IMG/VR virus record: IMGVR_UViG_2645727555_000018
Coordinates: 1 to 18,152 of that record
Length of the DNA stretch: 18,152 nucleotides
Source of the DNA: a virus
Lineage: Duplodnaviria > Heunggongvirae > Uroviricota > Caudoviricetes
Reading direction: 5' to 3' (one strand)
Positions 3,486 through 15,243 of the stretch are shown here, one piece after another. The notes below the pieces were generated by a model. That model ran no database searches. It was not told the origin of the DNA and was given only the letters and a program-made list of their open reading frames with translations. Numbering within the stretch: position 1 is the stretch's first letter; the number at the start of each line of letters is the position of its first letter. A program made the position numbers and the translations under genes.

Positions 3486-4715
3486 TCAAACATCCCCGTT
3501 CTTAATCCACTGCCTGACTTGCTCGTCTTGTGCGACTTCTTTCTCATGTTTGGCAATATACAAGTCTGGCAATAGGGGTGGAGCGAATTCAGGCTCTGTC
3601 GCACGCCACTTTTCATATGCGTCACGCATGGATTTCTCAACATTCCAATGCTCCAACTCTTGGTATTCAATCGGCCAGTTATCCTGCAATCTCTTCACTG
3701 CATTAGCCAGGTCGTATCGGAAGTAAGGATTAAGACCAATGAAATTACCAGCCAGCATGTCATCAACCTCCTTCACTCTGGCAATCTTAGAAAACTTACC
3801 AATAGCAATGTTGAGGTCCCAATCTGACACGAACAACAAAAGTGCTGCAAATGCCAGAAACTTAGCTTCCCCGTATGCTCTGTCGCTAACCGTTTTTGTC
3901 TGAAACTCAATGTAATTGCCCATCACAAAACTAGTAAGCTTACAGGTCTTACTTATCTCGTCCTCCAAATGCGATGGATCGAGAATTGTGCGGTCACGAT
4001 TATTGTTTATGTGTTCTAAGATTACAGCAATGTCTCTATGTGAGACTGAAATTTCACGCAATTGCTGGAGAGTCTTGATGTGAACTCTTAGCACCTCTTT
4101 GTCAATCGCACGCTTCCAAGAAAAACCAGGCACAGTAACCTGAATGGGCGCGAAAGGTAGAATATCAGGAGTTGTCCATGCTAGATATGCATCACGTAAC
4201 CCACTAATATAATAAAGCCAGTCTAAATGCTCGCTTTCTAACCATATTTCAAATGTGGAATCCTTTCGCTTATTGAAGAACCATTCCCTCATCTGCCACA
4301 TTTTTTCTTGAGTAAATATCCCTTCCTGTATGCCGGCACAGACCAGCTTTCGTATTACCTGCGAATACTTTGTTCGATCTTTTGTGAATGAGACAAGGTG
4401 CTGCTTCACCTCAGATGTTAGTCTATCTCCATAGAAATCACATGATGGATGATGGCCTTGACCATCTTCACCGGTAAATCTGAAATGCGCCTTCTTGTGA
4501 TAGCCACCATTCCTAGTGGCTCTAACGAACGAACCACCTCCAACTTTGCAAATGGGGCAGATGATATCGTCACGGGCAATAGCATGAACCGAGCTGTCAT
4601 CTAAATTCTTTAGCGCCAAGTACTGCTCAGGATCGACTTCTTTTTGTAACGATTTTGAAAAAGCGGTATCAGTCATTCCAAGCTCCGAGCAAGGGGTTAT
4701 TTGTTCAATTATCAT
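3486..4715 (-). CDS. hypothetical 396-409 aa protein with N-terminal Cys/His zinc-ribbon-like motif; AT-rich cargo gene
   Basis: Long ORF. Motif CPICK...(29 aa)...HHPSCDF. ATG at 4676 has a GGAG SD, ATG at 4715 has none. GC content visibly lower than neighbours. None of the shared promoter modules upstream. Confidence 0.6.
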   Translation of the reverse strand: MIIEQITPCSELGMTDTAFSKSLQKEVDPEQYLALKNLDDSSVHAIARDDIICPICKVGGGSFVRATRNGGYHKKAHFRFTGEDGQGHHPSCDFYGDRLTSEVKQHLVSFTKDRTKYSQVIRKLVCAGIQEGIFTQEKMWQMREWFFNKRKDSTFEIWLESEHLDWLYYISGLRDAYLAWTTPDILPFAPIQVTVPGFSWKRAIDKEVLRVHIKTLQQLREISVSHRDIAVILEHINNNRDRTILDPSHLEDEISKTCKLTSFVMGNYIEFQTKTVSDRAYGEAKFLAFAALLLFVSDWDLNIAIGKFSKIARVKEVDDMLAGNFIGLNPYFRYDLANAVKRLQDNWPIEYQELEHWNVEKSMRDAYEKWRATEPEFAPPLLPDLYIAKHEKEVAQDEQVRQWIKNGDV

Positions 4716-5307: not shown

Positions 5308-7341
5308 TTACTTAACCTGGTGGCCAGGTTTAGCACCAGCATCCGGGCTTAACAGGAAGATATCTTTCCCGCCGGGGCCAGCAGCCATCACCATGCCTTC
5401 AGAGATACCGAAGCGCATTTTACGCGGAGCCAGGTTAGCCACCATAATGGTGTGACGACCAATCAGTGCCTGTGGATCTGGATAAGCGGAACGGATGCCT
5501 GAGAAGACATTACGCTTTTCACCACCGAGATCCAGCGTCAGGCGAAGCAGTTTGTCAGAACCTTCGACAAACTCCGCGTTTTCAATCAGCGCTACACGCA
5601 GGTCAACTTTGGCGAAGTCGTCAAAGGTGATGGTTTCCTGAATCGGGTCGTCAGCCAGTGGGCCAGTTACCGGTGCAGCTGTGGCTTTCACTTCTTCTTT
5701 GGATGCTTCCACCAGTGCTTCCACCTGTTTCATATCGATACGGTTATACAGTGCCTTGAACGGATTCACTTTATGGCCCAGCAGCGGTTGCTGGATACCA
5801 TCCCAGGTCAGTTCTGTATTCAGGAATGCTTCTGCACGTTCAGTCAGTTTCGGCAGTACCGGTTTCAGGTACGTCATCAGCACGCGGAACAGGTTAATGC
5901 CCATAGAGCAAATCGCCTGCAGATCGGCATCGCGTCCTTCCTGCTTCGCCACCACCCACGGAGCCTGTTCATCGACATAGCGGTTAGCCAGATCAGCCAG
6001 CGCCATGATTTCACGAATCGCTTTACCAAATTCGCGGCTTTCCCATGCTTCACCAATCACTTCAGCGGCATCAGTAAAGGTTTTGTACAGTTGCGGGTCA
6101 GCCAGTTCGCCTGCCAGCACACCGTCAAAACGCTTATTGATAAAGCCCGCGTTACGGGACGCCAGATTCACCACTTTGTTCACGATATCGGCATTCACGC
6201 GCTGAACGAAATCCTCCAGGTTGAGATCGATATCATCAATGCGCGAAGAGAGTTTCGCAGTGTAGTAGTAACGCAGGCTGTCAGCGTCAAAATGATTCAG
6301 CCAGGTGCTGGCTTTAATAAAGGTGCCGCGAGACTTGGACATCTTCGCACCGTTCACCGTCACATAGCCATGAACAAATAGGTTGGTCGGCTTGCGGAAG
6401 TTGCTGCCTTCCAGCATGGCAGGCCAGAACAGGCTGTGGAAGTAAACGATATCTTTACCGATGAAGTGGTACAGCTCGGCGGTGGAGTCTTTCTTCCAGT
6501 ATTCGTCGAAGCTGGTAGTGTCGCCGCGTTTGTCGCACAGATTCTTGAAGGAACCCATGTAGCCAATCGGTGCGTCCAGCCAGACGTAGAAATATTTGCC
6601 CGGTGCGTTCGGAATTTCAAAACCGAAGTACGGCGCATCGCGGGAGATATCCCACTGTTGCAGGCCAGATTCAAACCACTCCTGCATTTTGTTTGCCACC
6701 TGCTCCTGCAACGCACCGCTGCGGGTCCATGCCTGCAACATTTCGCTGAAAGAGGGCAGATCAAAGAAGAAGTGTTCGGAATCACGCATTACCGGCGTAG
6801 CACCAGAAACTACCGATTTCGGCTCGATCAGTTCAGTCGGGCTGTAAGTCGCGCCGCAGACTTCACAGTTATCGCCGTATTGATCTGGCGCTTTACATTT
6901 AGGACAGGTGCCTTTTACAAAACGGTCCGGCAGGAACATGCCTTTTTCCGGGTCGTACAACTGAGAGATAGTGCGGTTTTTAATAAAACCGTTCTCTTTC
7001 AGGCGAGTATAGATAAGCTCAGACAACTGACGGTTCTCTTCGCTGTGCGTCGAGTGATAGTTGTCATAGCTGATGTTAAAGCCTGCGAAATCAGTCTGGT
7101 GTTCCTGACTCATTTCGCCAATCATCTGCTCCGGTGTGATACCAAGTTGCTGTGCTTTCAGCATGATCGGCGTACCGTGGGCATCGTCGGCACAGATGAA
7201 ATTAACCTCGTGGCCGCGCATTCGCTGGTAACGAACCCAGACATCAGCCTGGATGTGCTCCAGCATATGGCCGAGGTGGATTGAGCCGTTAGCGTACGGC
7301 AGCGCGCACGTCACCAGAATTTTCTTCGCGACTTGGGTCAT
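5308..7341 (-). CDS. metG: methionine--tRNA ligase (677 aa)
   Basis: N-terminus [29 protein letters not shown] with the class I HIGH-type motif (HLGH), the KMSKS motif (GAKMSKSRG) and a zinc-knuckle CPKC...CEVC. ORF extends to 7470 but the conserved start is ATG(7341). Confidence 0.97.
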
Positions 7342-7498
7342 AGTAGGCATTACTTCTTTGTAGTGAAAAGGGGCTTGATAGTAACAAAATGGCCTTATGT
7401 CTGCCATGTGATAACAGCATTTCTCATAAATGATTAAATGTCGCAGCTGGAGTACACTACAAGGCGACAATTGCGCAAATTAAAATAAAGGAGACGGG
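7342..7498. promoter_or_regulatory. divergent metG / apbC promoter region
   Basis: 157-bp AT-rich intergenic spacer between the two divergent start codons; AAGGAG SD precedes the apbC ATG. Confidence 0.5.
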
Positions 7499-8599
7499 AT
7501 GAGCGAGTCCAAATCGCCGGATGCCCTGAGAGCAATGGTAGCCGGTACGCTGGCTAATTTTCAGCACCCAACCCTGAAACACAACCTGACTACGCTTAAA
7601 GCGTTACACCATGTTGCGTTGATGGATGACACACTGCATGTCGAACTAATCATGCCTTTCGTGTGGAATAAGCCTTTTGAAGACCTGAAAGAGCAATGTA
7701 GTGGTGATCTGCTCCGTATCACTGGCGCAAAGGCTATTGACTGGAAGCTGTCGTACAACATTGCCACGCTTAAGCGCGTCAAAAACCAACCAGGCATTAA
7801 TGGTGTTAAGAATATTATCGCCGTAAGCTCAGGCAAGGGCGGTGTAGGCAAATCGTCCACAGCAGTAAACTTGGCACTGGCTTTGGCTGCTGAAGGTGCG
7901 AAAGTTGGTATTTTGGATGCCGATATCTATGGTCCATCAATTCCAACCATGCTGGGCGCGGAAAACCAACGTCCAACCTCACCTGACGGTACTCACATGG
8001 CACCTATCATGTCTCATGGCCTGGCAACCAACTCTATTGGTTATCTGGTCACCGACGACAATGCAATGGTGTGGCGTGGACCGATGGCCAGCAAGGCGCT
8101 GATGCAGATGTTGCAGGAAACTCTATGGCCTGATCTGGACTATCTCGTTCTCGATATGCCGCCGGGCACTGGTGATATTCAGTTGACGCTGGCGCAGAAC
8201 ATTCCTGTAACTGGTGCGGTTGTGGTAACTACGCCGCAAGACATCGCGCTGATCGATGCGAAGAAAGGCATTGTGATGTTCGAAAAAGTCGAAGTGCCGG
8301 TACTAGGTATCGTCGAAAACATGAGTGTGCATATTTGCAGTAACTGCGATCATCACGAGCCAATTTTTGGCACCGGTGGCGCACAGAAACTGGCCGAGAA
8401 ATACAACACGCAGTTGTTAGGCCAAATGCCACTTCATATCTCTCTTCGTGAAGATCTGGATAACGGAACACCAACCGTTATTAGTCGTCCAGATAGCGAA
8501 TTTACGGCTATTTATCGTGACCTCGCAGATCGCGTTGCTGCCCAAATGTATTGGCAAGGTGAAGTAATACCTGGCGAAATCGCATTCCGCGCAGTGTGA
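7499..8599 (+). CDS. apbC: iron-sulfur cluster carrier ATPase ApbC/Mrp
   Basis: P-loop GKGGVGKS, CSNC motif, C-terminal ...GEVIPGEIAFRAV; full-length 366-aa ORF. Confidence 0.95.
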   Translation: MSESKSPDALRAMVAGTLANFQHPTLKHNLTTLKALHHVALMDDTLHVELIMPFVWNKPFEDLKEQCSGDLLRITGAKAIDWKLSYNIATLKRVKNQPGINGVKNIIAVSSGKGGVGKSSTAVNLALALAAEGAKVGILDADIYGPSIPTMLGAENQRPTSPDGTHMAPIMSHGLATNSIGYLVTDDNAMVWRGPMASKALMQMLQETLWPDLDYLVLDMPPGTGDIQLTLAQNIPVTGAVVVTTPQDIALIDAKKGIVMFEKVEVPVLGIVENMSVHICSNCDHHEPIFGTGGAQKLAEKYNTQLLGQMPLHISLREDLDNGTPTVISRPDSEFTAIYRDLADRVAAQMYWQGEVIPGEIAFRAV

Positions 8600-8624
8600 T
8601 AAAAAGGTGGTGCAATGCACCACC
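8599..8624 (-). terminator. intrinsic terminator downstream of the umuD'-like gene, in the apbC 3' spacer
   Basis: Stem GGTGGTG/CACCACC (8606-8624) with loop CAATG, followed on the minus strand by UUUUUAUC. Confidence 0.55.
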
Positions 8625-8636
8625 TAAACAGTTCTC

Positions 8637-9026
8637 CTACATCACAGGACAATCATCAAACTCGCCACTTCTTGCGTCGTTGATAATGTGAGTGATCACA
8701 CCAAACACGGCATTGCTGCCCGTGCATCCATCATCATCCTTTGGCAATGCTTCCTTCTTACCAGTTCTTAAATCCTCCAGATGCTGACGTGGATACTTCC
8801 GGTATCTTTTTACGCGATATTCCCCATCCAGAGCACATACAAGAAGAGATCCATCAACAGGAGTCAGTGAGGAATCGACCACCAGCAATGCACCCTGCAA
8901 TATTCCCTCACGATGATGACTATCAGCCGCCCTCATGAAGTAGGTCGCTGAAGGATGTCTAATTATCTGCTGATCAAGAGAAATACGGCTCTCAGCATAA
9001 TCCGCCGCAGGAGAAGGGAAGCCCAT
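8637..9026 (-). CDS. UmuD'-like S24 peptidase-family protein encoded without the N-terminal arm (humD-like)
   Basis: Begins MGFPSPAADY, i.e. at the position of the UmuD Cys24-Gly25 autocleavage site. Ser (AADSH) and Lys (EYRVKRY) of the catalytic dyad are present. C-terminal VFGVITHII matches UmuD VFGVVIHVV. No umuC-like gene is adjacent. Confidence 0.85.
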   Translation of the reverse strand: MGFPSPAADYAESRISLDQQIIRHPSATYFMRAADSHHREGILQGALLVVDSSLTPVDGSLLVCALDGEYRVKRYRKYPRQHLEDLRTGKKEALPKDDDGCTGSNAVFGVITHIINDARSGEFDDCPVM

Positions 9027-9042
9027 AATACTCGCCTCTTAA

Positions 9043-9062
9043 TACTGTATATGCATACAGTA
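9043..9062. promoter_or_regulatory. LexA (SOS) box TACTGTATATGCATACAGTA
   Basis: Perfect CTGT-N8-ACAG palindrome 17 nt upstream of the umuD'-like ATG, next to an AAGAGG SD. Confidence 0.8.
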
Positions 9063-9116
9063 TATGTTGAAGCTATATATTTTTGAACTCTATCTCTTAA
9101 AAAAGATGTTAATAAG

Positions 9117-9359
9117 ATGCTAACTATTGAAAGGCATAAATATATACAATTCCAACAAACGTTATTTTTAACAAATTTTTACTTCCCATTGACTTTCCCA
9201 GACTCCTTGTCTGAACTAATGTCCGCGGAAACCACTTTTTCCTTTACGAGTTATCCACAAAGTTATGCACTTGCACATAGTCTCTATAAATCCTATCTTA
9301 ATTCGCAAGACACTGATGTTGCGGTATTGTGGGTACATTTGGTTAAAAACGGACATTAA
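9117..9359 (+). CDS. questionable small ORF (80 aa) in an AT-rich spacer
   Basis: Only plus-strand ORF outside apbC not overlapped by a minus-strand gene; followed directly by a terminator. No convincing SD, atypical composition. Confidence 0.2.
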   Translation: MLTIERHKYIQFQQTLFLTNFYFPLTFPDSLSELMSAETTFSFTSYPQSYALAHSLYKSYLNSQDTDVAVLWVHLVKNGH

Positions 9360-9360
9360 A

Positions 9361-9389
9361 AAAGCCCAGTTGACTAGGCTGGGCTTTTT
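9361..9389 (+). terminator. intrinsic terminator (plus strand)
   Basis: Stem AGCCCAG/CTGGGCT (9363-9369 / 9379-9385), A-run upstream and UUUUU downstream. Confidence 0.55.
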
Positions 9390-9390
9390 A

Positions 9391-9417
9391 AAAGGAAACA
9401 GAGTTTGCGCCTCTGTT
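9391..9417 (-). terminator. intrinsic terminator (minus strand), back-to-back with 9361..9389
   Basis: Stem AACAGAG/CTCTGTT (9397-9403 / 9411-9417) with loop TTTGCGC; the minus-strand reading is followed by UCCUUUUAAAAA. Confidence 0.4.
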
Positions 9418-9424
9418 CCTGAGC

Positions 9425-9619
9425 CATAAGTATCTGGCGACTGAGCTAAGATTAACCGAATGTACTGGATTCATCAAGAAACGTTGAGCCGTCATGCTAG
9501 GTAATAATGACCATTTACCAAACATCGTTGTTCTCAAAGAAGATTTAAGTCCAGGTTTTTGGTGACTCTAAAACCTTACCTTAACTCGAAATCGTGCCGT
9601 AAGTATCTGGCGACTACAG
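9425..9619. repeat. direct repeats in noncoding DNA: TAAGTATCTGGCGACT (9427-9442 and 9599-9614) and AAATCGTGCCG (9589-9599 and 9708-9718)
   Basis: Exact 16-bp and 11-bp direct repeats in an ORF-free stretch between two terminators. Confidence 0.5.
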
Positions 9620-9785
9620 ATATTGCAACTGCAAAGGCAAGCTCAAAGGTATTTGCAGCTAGGTGCGATAAAACTAAGTGAGGCCTATAGTGCTTAACTT
9701 ACTTTTCAAAATCGTGCCGCCTATGTTCGCAATCATCGAAGCGATCATTGAGTACGTCAACCAGCGCCCATAATGCTAGTTGTTA

Positions 9786-9816
9786 CCGGCCCCATCCAAA
9801 TGGGGCCATTTTATTG
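9786..9816 (+). terminator. intrinsic terminator-like hairpin
   Basis: Stem GGCCCCA/TGGGGCC (9788-9794 / 9801-9807) followed by AUUUUAUU on the plus strand. Confidence 0.45.
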
Positions 9817-9822
9817 TATTGA

Positions 9823-10494
9823 CTACATACTTTCTGATCTAATTGAGTTGTTCACTGCTCTGGCAATTTTCTCCCGCAATTGCTGCGCTCCGTGGTACTG
9901 AACCGCAATATCCCGCAACTCGTTCACCAGTTCTCTAATCTGGTGATCTTTAAGCTCATTATTTGGGTGATGGGTAACAACTCTGGTTAATTCACCCTTG
10001 TCTTTTGCTCTTACGTATGCAGCTCTTGTGCATTCGACCCATGTATTACCGCCTACATTAACTTCGTAGATTAGGCTGGACTTATCTGTCAATTCGGAAC
10101 AAATACGGGCCGTGGTCTGGCAACTAGAGCATTCGCAGTTATCGCGGAAACCGTGGTCTACTGGCTTCGGTTTCACATCATCAACTTTTTCTACCCTATT
10201 GGAATTTAAATACTTCGAAGCCTTGCTATGCCAATAGCTGGTTTTAGGATCTTGTCCATCCATCAAACGCCAGGCTTCAGCGATTAACTCATAACTAGTG
10301 ACTGTAGCTTCCTGCGCATCACCAATAAGTCGTGTAATCTCTCTTTCAAGCCGACCGCCTAACTCCGTTTTAGTGCAATGTTCTGACCAATCGCCAGCCT
10401 CAAGAAGCGCGAGAATGCTTAAAATATCGTCCAATAGAACGGTAGTATTATCGACTTCCTTCTGAAACTCACCGGCTACTGATTTATGCATCAT
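9823..10494 (-). CDS. hypothetical protein (223 aa), last gene of the coupled operon
   Basis: Its ATG overlaps the stop of the upstream gene (ATGATGA); long ORF. Confidence 0.6.
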   Translation of the reverse strand: MMHKSVAGEFQKEVDNTTVLLDDILSILALLEAGDWSEHCTKTELGGRLEREITRLIGDAQEATVTSYELIAEAWRLMDGQDPKTSYWHSKASKYLNSNRVEKVDDVKPKPVDHGFRDNCECSSCQTTARICSELTDKSSLIYEVNVGGNTWVECTRAAYVRAKDKGELTRVVTHHPNNELKDHQIRELVNELRDIAVQYHGAQQLREKIARAVNNSIRSESM

Positions 10495-11144
10495 TCGTCA
10501 TCCTCATCCGAGTCATCCTCATCACAGGATGAGAGTAGTGGGTTAGTCATTCGCCCTACTTGAGTGGCGTAGCCACGCCGACAGAGATTGCGCAGCACAC
10601 TGTATATTTCGAACATCTCGGTTCGTTCATCGCCAACATCAAGCTCAGATGCTATAGCGTGGCATTCAGTCGCGAGAGCCGATATTTTCTGAAATAACTC
10701 TGCATTATTCACTGTTCGACTCCTGCGGCGTTCTGGTAGTGGCATCCAGTGTGTGACATTGCTAATCAGACCATATTCATTAGTTTGAGGATGGTTGCCG
10801 TTATCGTCTCCGTATTTAAGACTCTCCATAAAGCCATAATGCCTATTACCATTAACGCTCACAAAGCCGTAATAAGCAGGTATAACGCCGATCTCACACG
10901 TAACCAGTAAAGGAAAACTAGTTCTCCAATTTAGCTCGCCAATTACAGGCATTCGCTCACTACAGCTTATCCAACCATCCTTAGATGCGGCTGTATTGGC
11001 ATAGGCCTTACGGTGCTTCTGTAGCTCTGCTGCAATCGCTCTCACGACTTCAACTGGTGCCCTTGCAGCAAACTCAATGTTGGTGATCAGCTCATTAAGA
11101 TATTTCTCGCTTGGGTAGCATTTCTTATTGTTAACGGTGGTCAT
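10491..11144 (-). CDS. hypothetical phage protein, DUF551-like, with acidic C-terminal tail
   Basis: Motifs GWISCSERMP and THWMPLPE resemble DUF551; C-terminus CDEDDSDEDDE; TAATG overlap with the upstream gene. Confidence 0.55.
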   Translation of the reverse strand: MTTVNNKKCYPSEKYLNELITNIEFAARAPVEVVRAIAAELQKHRKAYANTAASKDGWISCSERMPVIGELNWRTSFPLLVTCEIGVIPAYYGFVSVNGNRHYGFMESLKYGDDNGNHPQTNEYGLISNVTHWMPLPERRRSRTVNNAELFQKISALATECHAIASELDVGDERTEMFEIYSVLRNLCRRGYATQVGRMTNPLLSSCDEDDSDEDDE

Positions 11145-11329
11145 TAGGCAGCTCTCTCAACAACAAGCAATTCGTCGTAGTCATAATCAGTTTCGGAACC
11201 ATCCGTACCGAACAGAGTCACTTTGTCATTTTCCATCCAAAAAGATTTAACCGCACATTGTTGACCTTTAGATGTTATGAGCACATCACCAGGGATTACG
11301 TCTTCAGCGCGAACCTCTAGTGTTCTCAT
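11144..11329 (-). CDS. hypothetical small protein (61 aa)
   Basis: ATGA overlap upstream and TAATG overlap downstream place it inside the coupled operon. Confidence 0.5.
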   Translation of the reverse strand: MRTLEVRAEDVIPGDVLITSKGQQCAVKSFWMENDKVTLFGTDGSETDYDYDELLVVERAA

Positions 11330-11856
11330 CGTGCTGCCCCCTCTTTGGTGAAAATGCCTGCTGCAATGCTGTTTATGATGCTGTCAGTGCATGGAGTAGA
11401 AAGCTGGGCATCTCCAGCAATTTTCATGACCTCAACATCCGCATATCGAATACCGAGGTGTATCAGACCGGCTATACCTGACTTAAGTCGAACATTTTCC
11501 ATAAACAGATCTTTTTCCCGCTGTTTAGCGGCTTCCAACTCCATCGACAATTTTTCCAACTGCTCTTTATGCTTCTTGTATTCCTGATATGCGTGCCAGG
11601 ACTGACCTTTGCGCACACTATCAGTAATATCAGTAATCTGTTCTGGTGTTAGCGTGGTCAGTGGCTGTGCTGGGAAAATCAGCACTTTCCCGGAATCCCA
11701 ATCAAAACCAGCGTGAATTGACTGAACCTCAACTGATGGTGTTGAACCGATGCGACCAGGCGAATGAACAACGATCGTTACATCCATATCGCGACGATGG
11801 CTGTGGTTGTTGGACAAAATACGATTCACCAACTCAGAAAATTTGGAGAATTTCAT
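11326..11856 (-). CDS. hypothetical protein (176 aa); ORF begins at TTG 11868 but the SD-backed ATG is at 11856
   Basis: GAGG 8 nt upstream of ATG(11856), which lies 8 nt after the stop of the upstream gene. Confidence 0.55.
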   Translation of the reverse strand: MKFSKFSELVNRILSNNHSHRRDMDVTIVVHSPGRIGSTPSVEVQSIHAGFDWDSGKVLIFPAQPLTTLTPEQITDITDSVRKGQSWHAYQEYKKHKEQLEKLSMELEAAKQREKDLFMENVRLKSGIAGLIHLGIRYADVEVMKIAGDAQLSTPCTDSIINSIAAGIFTKEGAAR

Positions 11857-11864
11857 GCGGAGCC

Positions 11865-12275
11865 TCAATATGCAAAATAGACCGTTGCCACGCCGTTATA
11901 GTGATCAAACGATACGGCGTTTACTTCATAGCTGGCAGGGAGCTTCGATCCGAGAACGTATCCGGGCCACGTTTTCCATGGAATTTCTCTGCGCTCACTA
12001 TCGCCATATACCGTACATCCCAGAGAGCCTACAGCTTCATTAGAACGCGTGCCGCACGTTATGAATCCCAGATTTTGCTTACTGCTCTTAATGGTGATTG
12101 GGTGAACGCTGGCTGATGCATTAGCAGCACGCTGTGCCTGTTGGTTTGTGATATTCGCAGAGTTCGCAGCAGCTACAGCAGCCGTAGTCGCGGCGGTAGA
12201 GGCTACAATAGCTGCTGAAGCATGCACTTGTTGGATATTCACCAACAATGCCGCGACAAAAATCATCTTCTTCAC
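11865..12275 (-). CDS. hypothetical secreted/periplasmic protein with N-terminal signal peptide
   Basis: GTG start with AGGAG SD. N-terminus MKKMIFVAALLVNIQQVHASAA is a typical Sec signal with AxA cleavage site. Mature part is Ala/Thr/Ser-rich. Confidence 0.6.
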   Translation of the reverse strand: MKKMIFVAALLVNIQQVHASAAIVASTAATTAAVAAANSANITNQQAQRAANASASVHPITIKSSKQNLGFITCGTRSNEAVGSLGCTVYGDSERREIPWKTWPGYVLGSKLPASYEVNAVSFDHYNGVATVYFAY

Positions 12276-12859
12276 TTGTCAGCTCCTTTGCGAATCTGTT
12301 CCGCCCATTCTTCAAGGGATTTCTCCGCATATTCACCGGACAGGCCATCAATCGGGTGCGGTTCATTAGCCAACTCTTCTTTCGCTGACAGAATCATGCG
12401 TGTAACGTCGAAAACTTCACGTAAAGACTTATTGATAAATCCGTGGTTGAAAGCAGCAGCAAGACGGCTTGCGGTATAGTTAACCCCCTCGTTGCGAGTC
12501 TCCGCACGTACTTCAGCCAGAAAAGCATCGGTGGCTGGAGTCTCCGTCAATTCGCTAACCCAATTATCTCCGTGTTCCTCGGCACACATCGCATCGAATG
12601 CTCGCTCAGATTCTTTCAGGGCTGCATTCTCCGCCGCTAATGCGTCTCTCTGCGCTCGCAACTTCTCAATTTCGGCAGCCATGTAGTAACCAACCATAGC
12701 GAAAGTGGCGAAAGGGTAGTCAGAATCATCAGGAGATACGGAGGCCATTAGCAGACCATCGTGCATGTTCTGGCTTCCATCAGTGATGGATACCGCATAA
12801 GAATCGCTGGTTTCCCGTTTATACAATACGACGACCGGGTTCTTGATTTTCTCTCTCAT
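12272..12859 (-). CDS. hypothetical protein with central coiled-coil-like segment (possibly Ead/Ea22-like)
   Basis: Heptad-like EIEKLRAQRDALAAENAALKESERA; TAATG overlap with the upstream gene. Confidence 0.55.
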   Translation of the reverse strand: MREKIKNPVVVLYKRETSDSYAVSITDGSQNMHDGLLMASVSPDDSDYPFATFAMVGYYMAAEIEKLRAQRDALAAENAALKESERAFDAMCAEEHGDNWVSELTETPATDAFLAEVRAETRNEGVNYTASRLAAAFNHGFINKSLREVFDVTRMILSAKEELANEPHPIDGLSGEYAEKSLEEWAEQIRKGADK

Positions 12860-13401
12860 TACGATGCCTCTAACTTATCTAACTCTTTCAGCCCTTCACG
12901 TACCGCGTTCACAATGCGTTCCAGATACTGGTATTTCGGGTTTGGTACCGTTGGCCAGTCGGCATACCACGGATCATCACCAAAGAGATTCAGCAGTTTG
13001 TTACCGACGCCGAAACAACAGCAGCTTTCTTTTACGTCATCGGCGTTTTCCGCCTCGTCCCACATTTCACGAGCCAGTACGGCGTCGATTTCTCTCTCTC
13101 TTCGTAACTTTATGATTTCTGACTTCACGAAAAGCAGATTTGCATCGTTGTCATCGTCGACCGTGCTTCGCAGTTGAGAGTCGAAATAGCCGATTAGATA
13201 CTCGTTGCTGACCCGCTTAATGAACGTCTGCACATCATCACCGCCCATAGCAAACCAAGCCGCAGTCCACGCTTTTCCGTAGCAGATGATGGTGATTCTT
13301 CCCTTACCAGGTTCGTAGTTTTCAATCATCACTCGAACCGGATCGAGGCGTTCCAGATCCGTCAGCACAAAGGAAAGAACATCTATTTTTTCGACCTTCA
13401 T
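12859..13401 (-). CDS. hypothetical protein (180 aa)
   Basis: ATGA overlap with the upstream HD-hydrolase gene; long ORF. Confidence 0.55.
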   Translation of the reverse strand: MKVEKIDVLSFVLTDLERLDPVRVMIENYEPGKGRITIICYGKAWTAAWFAMGGDDVQTFIKRVSNEYLIGYFDSQLRSTVDDDNDANLLFVKSEIIKLRREREIDAVLAREMWDEAENADDVKESCCCFGVGNKLLNLFGDDPWYADWPTVPNPKYQYLERIVNAVREGLKELDKLEAS

Positions 13402-14039
13402 GCAGCCTCCAACGCGCTCCAGATCAGCGATTTGTGTTTTTCATAACGTTTGATGTGTACCGGTTTCAGAAGCGCAATACCTTCAGTGACTTTCGCCATT
13501 GCGCTTAATAGCAACGGGTGTTCTATACCTATCCTCTCCATGTACTCGACAACATCAGCGTTGGCACCAATCTCTTTGCCGTGAAAGAGTACGTCCAGCA
13601 TCAGTTCTTTCTCTGCGAGGTAGACAGCTGAAAACTCGGGATCGCGACTCACGATAGAAGAGGTATTGTCGAGCAGGTCAGCCAGCTTGATCATGCGCGT
13701 CTGCATGTCGAGATTTTGCTCCAGCTCCCGGACATTGATGATGAAACGCTGTATTCGATTGCCGTCTTCTGGCCTTGCAATGTTGGTCAGAGCCTGAACC
13801 ATTTCAGCTACGCGCTCACCGAAGTGATCACGAACCATCTCTATGGTTACATGGGTGTCTTCGACCACATCATGCAGAAGCGCCGCGATTTGCATCTCCA
13901 CGGTTCCGTCATGCAATGCAACAATCTCTCGGACAGCAACCGGGTGGTTGATGTAGTCTTCGCCGGTATATTTTCTTTTCTGACCAACGCCACCATGAGC
14001 GCCAGCGGCGAACATATGAGCTTCGGAAATACTAGACAT
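13398..14039 (-). CDS. HD-domain hydrolase of the RelA/SpoT (p)ppGpp-hydrolase type (small alarmone hydrolase-like)
   Basis: GEDYINHPVAV...AALLHDVVEDT...FGERVAEMV closely mirrors the SpoT/Rel hydrolase signature (GEPYI.HP.AV / LHDV.EDT). No synthetase domain; 213 aa. Confidence 0.75.
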   Translation of the reverse strand: MSSISEAHMFAAGAHGGVGQKRKYTGEDYINHPVAVREIVALHDGTVEMQIAALLHDVVEDTHVTIEMVRDHFGERVAEMVQALTNIARPEDGNRIQRFIINVRELEQNLDMQTRMIKLADLLDNTSSIVSRDPEFSAVYLAEKELMLDVLFHGKEIGANADVVEYMERIGIEHPLLLSAMAKVTEGIALLKPVHIKRYEKHKSLIWSALEAA

Positions 14040-14115
14040 TCTTAACTCCGTTGTTTTCTAGTTGTGGTTATTTTCACAAATAAGAAAAGGTAGAAAACAA
14101 TTTATTTAAGGCCAC
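14040..14115 (-). promoter_or_regulatory. dual-dyad promoter module for the 8-gene operon
   Basis: Minus strand reads GCCTTAAATAAATTGTTTTCTACCTTTTCTTATTTGTGAAAATAACCACAACTAGAAAACAACGGAG. Aligns with 5147..5232, including the TTGTTTTCTACCTTTT block and a TGnGAAAAT extended -10. Confidence 0.45.
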
Positions 14116-14158
14116 AACTTATGGCCTTTATTTATTCATGCCGAAGGATTTGTAGCGT

Positions 14159-14539
14159 CTAATTGCCGGATAAAATGGGGTGAGGTGCTTGCCAGTAGGC
14201 TCCACCGGTCCATGTGAACCCCATGCGAATAAGAGTGTTTATTGCGGCTTTGGTAGACTCCGATTCGACACTGGCTTTTCGAAACTCTTGAACCTCTTTC
14301 GCCAACTTGTATGTAATTGTGCAGGGGACGATTGCAGCCCAGCCTTTCTCATGACTGTTAATGACCATCTGGATGTGACCATCCAGAATAGGTTGATTAG
14401 GCATGTTATTGAAAATGTCTGCCTGTTTTTGAATGTGAAGAAAAAGCCTTGCCAGCTCCATTTGCTCACTACGAGACAAGGGATTATCAAGAGGGCTTTT
14501 TGCAAAAGCGGCTATACGCTGTGCGTCAATGCCAAACAT
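14159..14539 (-). CDS. hypothetical protein (126 aa)
   Basis: TGATG overlap with the upstream gene. Confidence 0.55.
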   Translation of the reverse strand: MFGIDAQRIAAFAKSPLDNPLSRSEQMELARLFLHIQKQADIFNNMPNQPILDGHIQMVINSHEKGWAAIVPCTITYKLAKEVQEFRKASVESESTKAAINTLIRMGFTWTGGAYWQAPHPILSGN

Positions 14540-15243
14540 CAGCGCACCTCACCATCTTTATGGCTGGAGTTAACTTCCGCCATTAAATGTCTGACGTAAT
14601 CGACAAGAGAGCCACCTGGTGGAATCTGGCATTCCTCAACTAACTGGAAGTAGATATCCGCTGCATTACGTGTATTGCTACCCGCACATATTCTTTCTTC
14701 CCGAAGTGCATGAAGCTCGTTGACCAAACGGTCACACTCTCCGTTACGCTGATCCACAACGGCCTCAAGCTCTGCGACGCGTTCACCTGGCGTCTTACCT
14801 TCTTTGCGTTGGATGGTAACGACGAAATCGCCAATTGCAGGGACGTTGTAATCCAGCTCAAGGTAGTTTTTGGCACCGCTGCGGACGAACTCACCCGCGA
14901 ACATGGTGGCGAACATTGCAGAGGCCACTTCGCCGTTGAAAAGTGACTCCAGATCTAACGGAGTACCGGCAGCAAGAGCCTCTTTTGCTGTATCCATTGC
15001 ATCCATGAACCGATCAAACTCACTAGCGCGCTTTTCCAGGTCTTTCCATTGCTCGCTCCAACGTTTGGCAACGAAGTCTATGAATGTTTTCGCGGATTCA
15101 TCAAAATTCCCCTCAAACTTAACGATGCCTTTATCAATAATGATCTGGCCTACCGCATCCTCTGCATAACCTTTCAATGTAAACTTGAAAGGAAAATCAG
15201 AATGGCCTGTGACGTTAAAATGCTCTAACTGGAGGTTGTTCAT
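14539..15243 (-). CDS. hypothetical protein (234 aa)
   Basis: Long ORF 61 nt downstream of the methyltransferase gene with no promoter module between them; probably co-transcribed. Confidence 0.55.
   Translation of the reverse strand: MNNLQLEHFNVTGHSDFPFKFTLKGYAEDAVGQIIIDKGIVKFEGNFDESAKTFIDFVAKRWSEQWKDLEKRASEFDRFMDAMDTAKEALAAGTPLDLESLFNGEVASAMFATMFAGEFVRSGAKNYLELDYNVPAIGDFVVTIQRKEGKTPGERVAELEAVVDQRNGECDRLVNELHALREERICAGSNTRNAADIYFQLVEECQIPPGGSLVDYVRHLMAEVNSSHKDGEVR

What the first reader, a model, noticed from the sequence alone, without database searches (positions are those of the whole stretch)
8637..9062. Standalone pre-processed UmuD' analogue under a perfect LexA box
The ORF starts MGFPSPAADY, the residues that follow the Cys24-Gly25 RecA-stimulated autocleavage site of UmuD. 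The protein is therefore made directly in the active UmuD' form while keeping the Ser/Lys dyad. The consensus SOS box TACTGTATATGCATACAGTA sits 17 nt upstream. No umuC/polV partner is nearby; the gene is wedged tail-to-tail against apbC. This matches the phage P1 humD concept: a mobile element supplying UmuD' to host Pol V on SOS induction.
Basis: partly seen in the sequence, partly recalled or inferred. Interest (0 to 1): 0.6.

Follow-up and report, generated by a model that had tools for sequence, protein, structure and literature searches.

The report
Phage-plasmid HumD gene, already known
This is an ordinary, already catalogued copy of humD, the phage P1-type gene that makes a ready-cleaved UmuD' subunit for the host's error-prone DNA polymerase V when DNA is damaged; here it sits on an SSU5-like phage-plasmid of E. 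coli.

Summary
A 129-aa ORF (9026..8637, minus strand) starts MGFPSPAADY, matching UmuD from Gly25. An in-frame TAA five codons upstream rules out an N-terminal arm. The LexA box TACTGTATGCATATACAGTA (9062..9043) overlaps a -10 hexamer, 16 nt before the ATG.

The protein matches the NCBIfam equivalog "HumD family translesion DNA polymerase" end to end (219.8 bits, cutoff 120). It is 91.5-92% identical to P1/P7 HumD and 100% identical to a gene of Escherichia phage Cyrano. RefSeq already names it HumD family.

The window is not chromosome. It is a ~110-kb SSU5-like phage-plasmid carrying its own metG and apbC copies. The near-identical complete element has no umuC, whereas 5423 of 5426 complete E. 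coli genomes do.

dN/dS against P1 humD is 0.04, so the gene is maintained. LexA boxes precede humD in every phage lineage examined.

One correction: the Ser/Lys pair is present, but the Ser position alternates with Thr across the family and the GDSM motif is lost.

One unexplained feature is a near-invariant C-terminal tail, EFDDCPVM, seen only in arm-less forms. Interest is low.

The parts
8637..9026 (-). humD coding sequence (129 aa plus stop). It encodes an arm-less UmuD'-type S24-fold protein. Ser36 and Lys73 correspond to UmuD Ser60 and Lys97.
   Evidence: ORF listing and translation. NF051876 HumD equivalog, 219.8 bits. PF00717. phrog_811 'UmuD-like protein', E 2.7e-54. UmuD' structure 1UMU by sequence, E 6.7e-23. 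91.5-92.2% aa identity to P1/P7 HumD. dN/dS 0.043 against P1 humD.
8640..8672 (-). Codons for the C-terminal tail RSGEFDDCPVM (residues 119-129). The tail is specific to the HumD family and absent from UmuD/UmuD'. Its function is unknown.
   Evidence: E122 and D124 are invariant, and F123, D125, C126, P127 and V128 are at least 90% conserved in 96 family members. The tail is present in P1, N15, phiKO2, HK639 and Citrobacter copies. The motif occurs in 6 of 20 arm-less representatives and 0 of 68 arm-bearing ones.
9035..9040 (-). Shine-Dalgarno sequence AAGAGG, 8 nt before the ATG.
   Evidence: Read directly from the sequence.
9043..9062 (.). LexA (SOS) box TACTGTATGCATATACAGTA, a palindromic operator.
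   Evidence: Expectation 0.0014 per window. The identical 20-mer lies upstream of phiKO2 gp23 and of Klebsiella N15-like humD copies. Homology with P1 starts exactly at this box. P1 annotates the equivalent site as LexA binding.
9059..9087 (-). Sigma-70-like promoter: -35 TTCAAA (9087..9082), 17-nt spacer, -10 TATACT (9064..9059). The -10 hexamer overlaps the first 4 nt of the LexA box.
   Evidence: Consensus scan, 9 of 12 matches. This is a consensus match only, not proof of function.
8605..8625 (-). Intrinsic terminator hairpin of humD, followed by a T-run. It lies between the humD and apbC stop codons.
   Evidence: Terminator scan. RNA fold -15.3 kcal/mol, z -2.75.
9356..9392 (.). Bidirectional hairpin (AAAAAGCCCAG...CTGGGCTTTTT). 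It would insulate humD from upstream minus-strand transcription, making humD its own LexA-controlled unit.
   Evidence: Inverted repeat I2, 93% complementary. Terminator-like site 9380..9363 on the minus strand.

Best explanation
The locus is humD carried on an SSU5-like E. coli phage-plasmid. It is a single-gene, self-contained SOS cassette: promoter, LexA operator, RBS, ORF and terminator.

Proposed mechanism:
1. In undamaged lysogens, host LexA binds the operator that overlaps the -10 hexamer and keeps the gene off.
2. When DNA damage activates RecA* and LexA is cleaved, HumD is made directly in the UmuD' form. It has no N-terminal arm and needs no RecA*-dependent self-cleavage.
3. HumD dimerises and joins the host's chromosomal UmuC (and RecA-ATP) to give a Pol V-like translesion polymerase. 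This raises damage tolerance and mutagenesis of the host and the element.

What is shown here: the gene's anatomy, orthology to P1 HumD, absence of a cognate umuC on the element, near-universal presence of umuC in E. coli, purifying selection, and conserved LexA boxes across HumD loci.

What is inferred: LexA repression at this particular promoter, and the UmuC partnership. These rest on experiments with P1 HumD (McLenigan et al. 1999, J Bacteriol 181:7005, recalled from memory; the paper is cited and summarised in the P1 GenBank note).
For: - Family assignment: full-length match to the NCBIfam HumD equivalog at 219.8 bits against a cutoff of 120.
- Sequence identity: 100% aa to phage Cyrano CYRAN_98, 91.5-92.2% to P1/P7 HumD, and 64-71% to N15 gp26, phiKO2 gp23, HK140 and HK639.
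- Existing annotation: the P1 record annotates a LexA binding site 19 nt before humD and states 'functionally complements E. coli UmuD''. PMC9603915 calls humD a LexA-regulated SOS gene.
- Shared cassette: homology with P1 covers exactly box-to-stop (window 9062..8638, 83% nt), so operator and gene travel together.
- Conserved operators: exact CTGT-N8-ACAG boxes lie upstream of humD in Cyrano, P1, N15, phiKO2, HK140, HK639 and three Klebsiella N15-like contigs. A Citrobacter prophage has a one-mismatch box.
- Local signals: the promoter -10 overlaps the box, and a terminator follows the gene.
- Selection: dN/dS is 0.043 with dS about 1 against P1 humD.
- Partner: no UmuC homologue is found in the window or in the 99.7%-identical complete 111.7-kb plasmid (best tblastn E 0.64; annotation). 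umuC is in 5423 of 5426 complete E. coli genomes.
- Fold: sequence homology to solved UmuD' structures (1UMU, E 6.7e-23).
Against: No experiment exists on this copy, and nothing here measures LexA binding, induction or UmuC interaction.

From memory of McLenigan 1999, P1 HumD was poorly expressed and complemented well only from a high-copy plasmid, so the physiological role of HumD is not settled even for P1.

The family carries a strongly conserved C-terminal tail that UmuD' lacks. In other phages humD is paired with dinI. Both facts hint that 'just a pre-cut UmuD'' may be incomplete.

The element encodes its own RecA and DnaE, whose relation to HumD is unknown.
Confidence: 0.8

Rival explanations
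1. HumD mainly tunes RecA* filaments rather than acting as a polymerase subunit. It would bind activated RecA filaments, as UmuD'2C and DinI do, and so modulate LexA or repressor cleavage and recombination during SOS. The benefit would be to the phage's induction decision, and Pol V activation would be a side effect.
For: In phiKO2, HK140, Klebsiella N15-like plasmids and Citrobacter prophages, humD sits divergently next to dinI, a RecA-filament binder, under a shared LexA box. In P1 the divergent partner is lxr, 'LexA regulated function'. HumD loci never carry umuC. From memory, P1 HumD binds RecA nucleoprotein filaments in vitro (McLenigan 1999).
Against: Per the GenBank note, P1 HumD restores UmuD'-dependent functions, so the Pol V role is real at least when HumD is overexpressed. 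The window's copy has no dinI or lxr partner. The two roles are not mutually exclusive.
Confidence: 0.12
2. HumD is an active S24 protease working in trans. For example, it could cleave the arm of host UmuD within HumD/UmuD heterodimers, or cleave another substrate, using the retained Ser36/Lys73 pair.
For: Lys is kept in 118 of 121 family members and a hydroxyl residue (Ser or Thr) in 119 of 121. From memory, UmuD cleavage is known to be intermolecular (McDonald et al. 1998-99).
Against: The nucleophile position alternates between Ser (76) and Thr (43). The flanking GDSM motif is lost: D59 is hypervariable, M61 is replaced by His, and there is a one-residue deletion. HK639 has Met at the Lys position. 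This pattern fits a structural hydrogen-bond pair better than a conserved catalytic centre. The UmuD subfamily model scores below its cutoff (87 against 110).
Confidence: 0.05
3. The ORF is a decaying remnant of a umuDC operon that lost its 5' end and umuC, and has no function.
For: It lacks the arm and has no umuC.
Against: dN/dS is 0.043 at dS about 1. 561 90%-identity clusters matched (E<=1e-5); of the 120 listed, 107 start M-GFPSP and most end in the tail. The gene has its own operator, RBS and terminator. It meets the curated equivalog model.
Confidence: 0.01

Closest known systems
Bacteriophage P1/P7 HumD (P1_gp103, YP_006569.1)
   Same: 129 aa with 91.5-92.2% identity. Same MGFPSP start, same C-terminal tail, a LexA box 16-19 nt upstream, and no umuC partner. 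Carried on a phage-plasmid.
   Different: The host element is an unrelated phage-plasmid type: SSU5-like siphovirus against the P1 myovirus. Here the neighbours are apbC downstream and no lxr upstream, whereas P1 has hot-lxr upstream and phd-doc downstream. The box sequence is closer to the consensus (TACTGTATGCATATACAGTA against TACTGTATAAATGAACAGTA in P1). Synonymous sites are nearly saturated (dS about 1).
N15 gp26, phiKO2 gp23, HK140 gp28 and HK639 UmuD-like proteins (HumD family in lambdoid and linear-plasmid prophages)
   Same: Arm-less, 127-129 aa, 64-71% identity, the same tail, and a LexA box upstream. phiKO2 carries the identical 20-nt box.
   Different: These usually sit at the tail-fibre/partition or attP end of the prophage. 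They are often divergent from dinI, and sometimes a small ORF lies between the box and humD. The Ser60-equivalent is Thr in these four.
E. coli UmuD' (residues 25-139 of UmuD; PDB 1UMU, 1I4V, 1AY9)
   Same: Same fold family. 42% identity over residues 2-118. The nine residues after the cleavage site are identical. Ser and Lys positions are aligned.
   Different: UmuD' arises by RecA*-stimulated self-cleavage of a 139-aa precursor encoded in an operon with umuC. HumD is translated directly, is monocistronic, lacks the GDSM motif, and has an extra 10-11-residue tail. It scores below the UmuD subfamily cutoff (87 against 110).
Plasmid and ICE UmuD homologues (MucA, ImpA, RumA)
   Same: UmuD-type proteins carried on mobile elements and regulated by SOS (own knowledge).
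   Different: From established knowledge, these keep the cleavable arm and are encoded with their own UmuC-type polymerase (MucB, ImpB, RumB). In the 50%-identity representative set, 68 arm-bearing relatives lack the HumD tail.

Membership tests
HumD family (NCBIfam NF051876, equivalog) | Full-length score above the curated cutoff of the family model | tested here: met
   219.8 bits against a cutoff of 120; residues 1-129 cover model positions 1-129 of 129.
HumD family | Translation starts at the residue equivalent to UmuD Gly25, with no N-terminal arm and no Cys/Ala-Gly cleavage site | tested here: met
   M-GFPSPAADY aligns to UmuD 25-33. There is an in-frame TAA at 9041..9039 and no start codon between it and the ATG. 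107 of 120 family representatives likewise have one residue before GFPSP.
HumD family | Not in an operon with a umuC-type polymerase gene | tested here: met
   No UmuC hit in the window or in the whole near-identical plasmid (tblastn, best E 0.64). None is annotated. The same holds in P1, N15, phiKO2, HK140, HK639, Citrobacter and Klebsiella loci.
HumD family | LexA operator in the promoter region | tested here: met
   The box at 9043..9062 overlaps a -10 hexamer. Equivalent boxes occur in all compared loci. Actual LexA binding and induction could not be tested.
HumD family | Family-specific C-terminal tail ...EFDDCPV[MIL] | tested here: met
   The window protein ends SGEFDDCPVM. The tail is invariant or at least 90% conserved across 96 members.
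HumD family | Functional substitution for UmuD' (UV mutagenesis, binding to UmuC and RecA filaments) | not testable with these tools
   Known only for P1 HumD (GenBank note; McLenigan 1999 cited; the paper is not held in the library).
UmuD, autoproteolytic Pol V subunit (NCBIfam NF007621 / PRK10276) | Score above the subfamily cutoff, a cleavable N-terminal arm, and the GDSM catalytic motif | tested here: not met
   87 bits against a cutoff of 110. No arm. The motif reads ADSHH with a one-residue deletion.
LexA / CI-type S24 repressors (TIGR00498) | N-terminal DNA-binding domain plus a cleavable linker | tested here: not met
   27.2 bits against a cutoff of 110.95, and only the C-terminal domain region aligns. 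The protein has 129 aa and no N-terminal domain.
Peptidase S24 fold (PF00717) | Domain match above the gathering threshold and homology to a solved structure | tested here: met
   37.9 bits against 23.3. UmuD' 1UMU, E 6.7e-23. My own AlphaFold model was too poor to add anything (pLDDT 41.5).

The most novel reading that the evidence does not exclude
HumD may be more than a pre-cleaved UmuD'. The family has acquired a near-invariant acidic C-terminal peptide, (S/N)(G/A)EFDDCPV(M/I/L). One distant arm-less relative ends in GEFDDTPF. The peptide is found only in arm-less, umuC-less forms.

It resembles the C-terminal tip of bacterial SSB (DFDDDIPF; own knowledge). It could therefore be a docking peptide that recruits HumD, or HumD-UmuC, to SSB-interacting replication and repair proteins, or that competes with SSB for them. 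That would give the phage protein a function the host UmuD' lacks.
Probability: 0.1. Interest if true: 0.55.

Novelty: already known. Interest (0 to 1): 0.14.

Why it matters
As it stands, the finding matters little. It confirms that a known SOS-inducible mutagenesis accessory gene, humD, is carried by SSU5-like phage-plasmids as well as by P1-like ones.

The scale is worth noting. humD-like DNA is present in 765 of 5426 complete E. coli genomes, mostly on ~80-113-kb plasmids. Some of these elements also carry resistance genes. The nearest complete relative of this window carries blaCTX-M-15 and dfrA51. A damage-inducible supply of ready-made UmuD' on resistance-bearing phage-plasmids could be relevant to stress-induced mutagenesis, but that idea is not new.

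The only open question raised here is the role of the conserved C-terminal tail.

Tried and rejected
- **AlphaFold2 model.** Built from 96 family members, it gave mean pLDDT 41.5. The alignment is too shallow (about 70% identity throughout). The model was not used and no fold search was run. Fold assignment rests on sequence homology to solved UmuD' structures.
- **Primary papers.** McLenigan 1999 (PMC94175) and the P1 genome paper (PMC523184) are not held in the library. Their content is cited from the GenBank notes, from secondary papers and from memory, marked as such.
- **RNA and defence scans.** Rfam found nothing in the window and there are no tRNAs. PADLOC gave no defence-system hit for HumD.
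- **409-aa ORF 3486..4715 as a diverged UmuC.** Rejected: it has no Pfam domain, matches phrog_12525 of unknown function, and gives no tblastn match to UmuC.
- **N-terminally longer database entries (148-223 aa) as real arm-bearing HumDs.** Rejected as start-codon or fusion artefacts. The 148-aa form (P0024) carries about 19 extra residues before the M-GFPSP start, apparently read from the upstream LexA-box/RBS region. The longer ones are fused to the small upstream ORF seen in HK140-type loci.
- **80-aa ORF 9117..9359 as a divergent LexA-controlled partner (dinI- or lxr-like).** It has no Pfam hit, matches only a PHROG of unknown function, and no plus-strand promoter was found by the scan. 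Left open.
- **LF82/Cyrano paper.** It does not mention this gene, LexA or UmuD.

Full report
**1.

The minus strand carries an ATG ORF at 9026..8637. It encodes 129 aa, MGFPSPAADYAESRISLDQQIIRHPSATYFMRAADSHHREGILQG...NDARSGEFDDCPVM. Residues 2-10 are identical to UmuD Gly25-Tyr33, the residues just after the Cys24-Gly25 autocleavage site.

Five codons upstream in frame is a TAA (9041..9039). None of the codons between it and the ATG is a start codon, so an N-terminal arm cannot be made.

The 20-mer TACTGTATATGCATACAGTA lies at 9043..9062. On the coding strand it reads TACTGTATGCATATACAGTA. It is the only TACTGT-N8-ACAGTA site in the window even when two mismatches are allowed. An exact match is expected 0.0014 times per window from base composition. 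The spacer to the ATG is 16 nt.

Several signals surround the gene:
- A good Shine-Dalgarno sequence (AAGAGG) lies 8 nt before the ATG.
- A sigma-70-like promoter has a -35 TTCAAA, a 17-nt spacer and a -10 TATACT. The -10 hexamer overlaps the first four bases of the box.
- A 9-bp GC-rich hairpin with a T-run follows the stop codon (8625..8605; -15.3 kcal/mol, z -2.75).
- A bidirectional hairpin at 9356..9392 separates the gene from upstream minus-strand genes.

The locus is therefore a compact one-gene unit.

**2. What the gene is**

The protein matches the NCBIfam equivalog NF051876, "HumD family translesion DNA polymerase", over its whole length. The score is 219.8 bits against a cutoff of 120.

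It falls below the cutoffs for two related families: the autoproteolytic UmuD subfamily (87 against 110) and LexA (27 against 111).

Other matches agree. Pfam gives Peptidase_S24. PHROGs gives "UmuD-like protein". The closest solved structures by sequence are UmuD' (1UMU, E 6.7e-23, 42% identity).

tblastn against phage genomes gives these protein identities:
- 100% to Escherichia phage Cyrano
- 98-99% to related phage-plasmids
- 91.5-92.2% to P1 and P7 HumD
- 64-71% to N15 gp26, phiKO2 gp23, HK140 and HK639

The P1 GenBank record annotates "LexA binding site in the regulatory region of lxr and humD" 19 nt before humD. It also states that HumD "functionally complements E. coli UmuD'". A review of P1-like phage-plasmids calls humD a LexA-regulated SOS gene (PMC9603915). 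RefSeq already names this exact protein (WP_000506720.1) "HumD family translesion DNA polymerase" on a plasmid that is 99.7% identical over the region searched (window 8300-10500).

**3.

The window is not chromosomal. It matches ~106-113-kb E. coli plasmids at up to 99.7-100%.

The annotated complete relative, EC08 plasmid p2 (111.7 kb), carries:
- RepB and ParB
- terminase, portal, capsid, tape-measure and tail genes
- its own recA, dnaE, dnaB-like helicase, primase, ligase, nrdAB, thyA and four tRNAs
- dfrA51 and blaCTX-M-15

Cyrano is the SSU5-like phage-plasmid pLF82 of E. coli LF82 (PMC9928086). metG and apbC are therefore cargo of the element itself.

tblastn with E. coli UmuC finds nothing in the window or across the whole near-identical plasmid (best E 0.64). 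In contrast, umuC is present in 5423 of 5426 complete E. coli genomes. Any Pol V partner must therefore be the host's.

humD-like DNA occurs in 765 of 5426 genomes. It is found at 691 places on plasmids and 113 on chromosomes.

**4. Comparative evidence for function and regulation**

Nucleotide homology between the window and P1 starts exactly at the LexA box and ends at the stop codon (window 9062..8638, 83% identity). phiKO2 and related Klebsiella linear plasmids carry the identical 20-nt box.

Exact CTGT-N8-ACAG boxes lie upstream of humD in Cyrano, P1, N15, phiKO2, HK140, HK639 and three Klebsiella contigs. In HK140 the box is 262 nt away, in front of a small leader ORF. A Citrobacter prophage has a one-mismatch box, TACTGGATGGATATACAGTA.

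Against P1 humD, pS is 0.55 and pN is 0.04, giving dN/dS of 0.043. This is strong purifying selection and excludes a decaying remnant.

The family is large. It comprises 561 clusters at 90% identity. The top 120 are nearly all 126-130 aa, and 107 of the 120 have exactly one residue (Met) before GFPSP. The longer database entries are start-site or fusion artefacts.

In many lineages humD is divergent from dinI under the shared box. In P1 the divergent gene is lxr. Here neither is present.

**5. Correction on the Ser/Lys dyad**

Across 121 sequences, however, the Ser position is S 76 / T 43 / A 2. The preceding Asp is hypervariable. The following Met is replaced by His in 108 of 121. One residue of the GDSM loop is deleted. 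HK639 has Met at the Lys position. Lys is otherwise kept in 118 of 121.

This pattern suggests a retained structural pair rather than a conserved protease centre. That fits a protein that never needs to cleave itself.

**6. An unexplained extra feature**

All HumD-type proteins end in a tail that UmuD' lacks: (S/N)(G/A)EFDDCPV(M/I/L). E122 and D124 are invariant, and F123, D125, C126, P127 and V128 are at least 90% conserved, in a family whose mean column identity is 79%.

An exhaustive HMMER search of 50%-identity representatives returned 3416 hits. Among representatives of at least 115 aa in which the GFPSP-type motif could be located (88 of 107), 20 start MGFPSP and 68 carry an arm. The tail motif is present in 6 of 20 arm-less forms and 0 of 68 arm-bearing forms. 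Fisher's test gives 7e-5, which is descriptive only because the clusters are not independent. Other arm-less forms have related acidic tails, one ending GEFDDTPF.

The resemblance to the SSB C-terminal tip (DFDDDIPF, from memory) is a lead, not a result. I offer it only as the novel case. An AlphaFold model that might have placed the tail failed (pLDDT 41.5).

**7. Mechanism and verdict**

The best-supported mechanism has three steps:
1. Host LexA represses the promoter through the operator that overlaps the -10 hexamer.
2. SOS induction derepresses it.
3. HumD, made directly in the UmuD' form, joins host UmuC (with RecA-ATP) to give Pol V-type translesion synthesis without the slow RecA*-dependent UmuD cleavage step.

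The anatomy, orthology, partner availability and selection are shown here. LexA control and the UmuC partnership are inferred from P1 HumD work.

There are three rivals: a RecA*-tuning role, a trans-protease role, and a pseudogene. They have confidence 0.12, 0.05 and 0.01.

Interest is low. Only the conserved tail and the gene's prevalence on resistance-bearing phage-plasmids are worth a note.

Noticed in passing
window 5308..8599 (metG on the minus strand, annotated start near 7341; apbC 7499..8599 on the plus strand): The phage-plasmid carries its own divergently arranged metG (methionyl-tRNA synthetase) and apbC (Fe-S cluster carrier) copies, the same arrangement as at the E. coli chromosomal locus. 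The short apbC 3' segment included in the query matched every complete E. coli genome, but only at 60-90% nucleotide identity, so these look like diverged housekeeping paralogues kept as phage cargo. Cyrano's annotation calls apbC 'MinD'.
   Followed up: partly
window 9152..9275, including 9251..9259 TTATCCACA and 9263..9271 TTATGCACT: A perfect DnaA box and a near-perfect one lie about 190 nt upstream of humD. This stretch is 72% identical to the P1 upfO / 'two predicted DnaA boxes' / late-promoter LPhot region. In P1, hot and lxr lie between this region and humD. Here they are absent.
   Followed up: partly
window 9117..9359 (plus strand): An 80-aa ORF divergent from humD ends at the bidirectional hairpin 9356..9392. 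It matches phrog_28987 (unknown function, E 1.5e-39) but no Pfam family, is rich in F, Y, L, T and S, and is not annotated in Cyrano or RefSeq. It may be non-coding. If it is real, it could share the LexA box the way lxr (P1) or dinI (phiKO2) do.
   Followed up: partly
L009 7390..8463 and 11441..14959 (EC08 plasmid p2, near-identical element; outside the window): The element encodes its own RecA homologue and a full-length DnaA-independent-looking replication set: DnaE, DnaB-like helicase, toprim primase, ligase, RNase HI, NrdAB and ThyA. A phage-plasmid with its own RecA plus a LexA-controlled UmuD' analogue raises the question of which RecA activates the HumD-UmuC complex.
   Followed up: no
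window 9423..9442 and 9596..9615; 9586..9599 and 9706..9719: Two pairs of short direct repeats (20 nt at 95% identity, spacing 173; 14 nt at 93% identity, spacing 120) lie in the ~800-bp gene-free stretch between humD and the next minus-strand gene (9823..10494). Their meaning is unknown, and two-copy families are often chance matches.
   Followed up: no
L012 5439..6390, L016 5682..6384, L006 910..1890: In Citrobacter prophages, Klebsiella N15-like linear plasmids and HK140, humD forms a conserved divergent pair with dinI around one LexA box. Sometimes an 80-aa leader ORF is translationally coupled to humD. DinI blocks UmuD cleavage (own knowledge), so pairing it with a pre-cleaved UmuD' looks like a coherent module.
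   Followed up: partly
window 9823..14039 (minus strand): A run of small phage early-region-type genes (DUF551; Ead/Ea22-, Eaa- and Eae-like in Cyrano's annotation) is mosaic between close relatives. EC08 p2 has pseudogenised DUF551 and Ea22 fragments where the window has intact ORFs.
   Followed up: no
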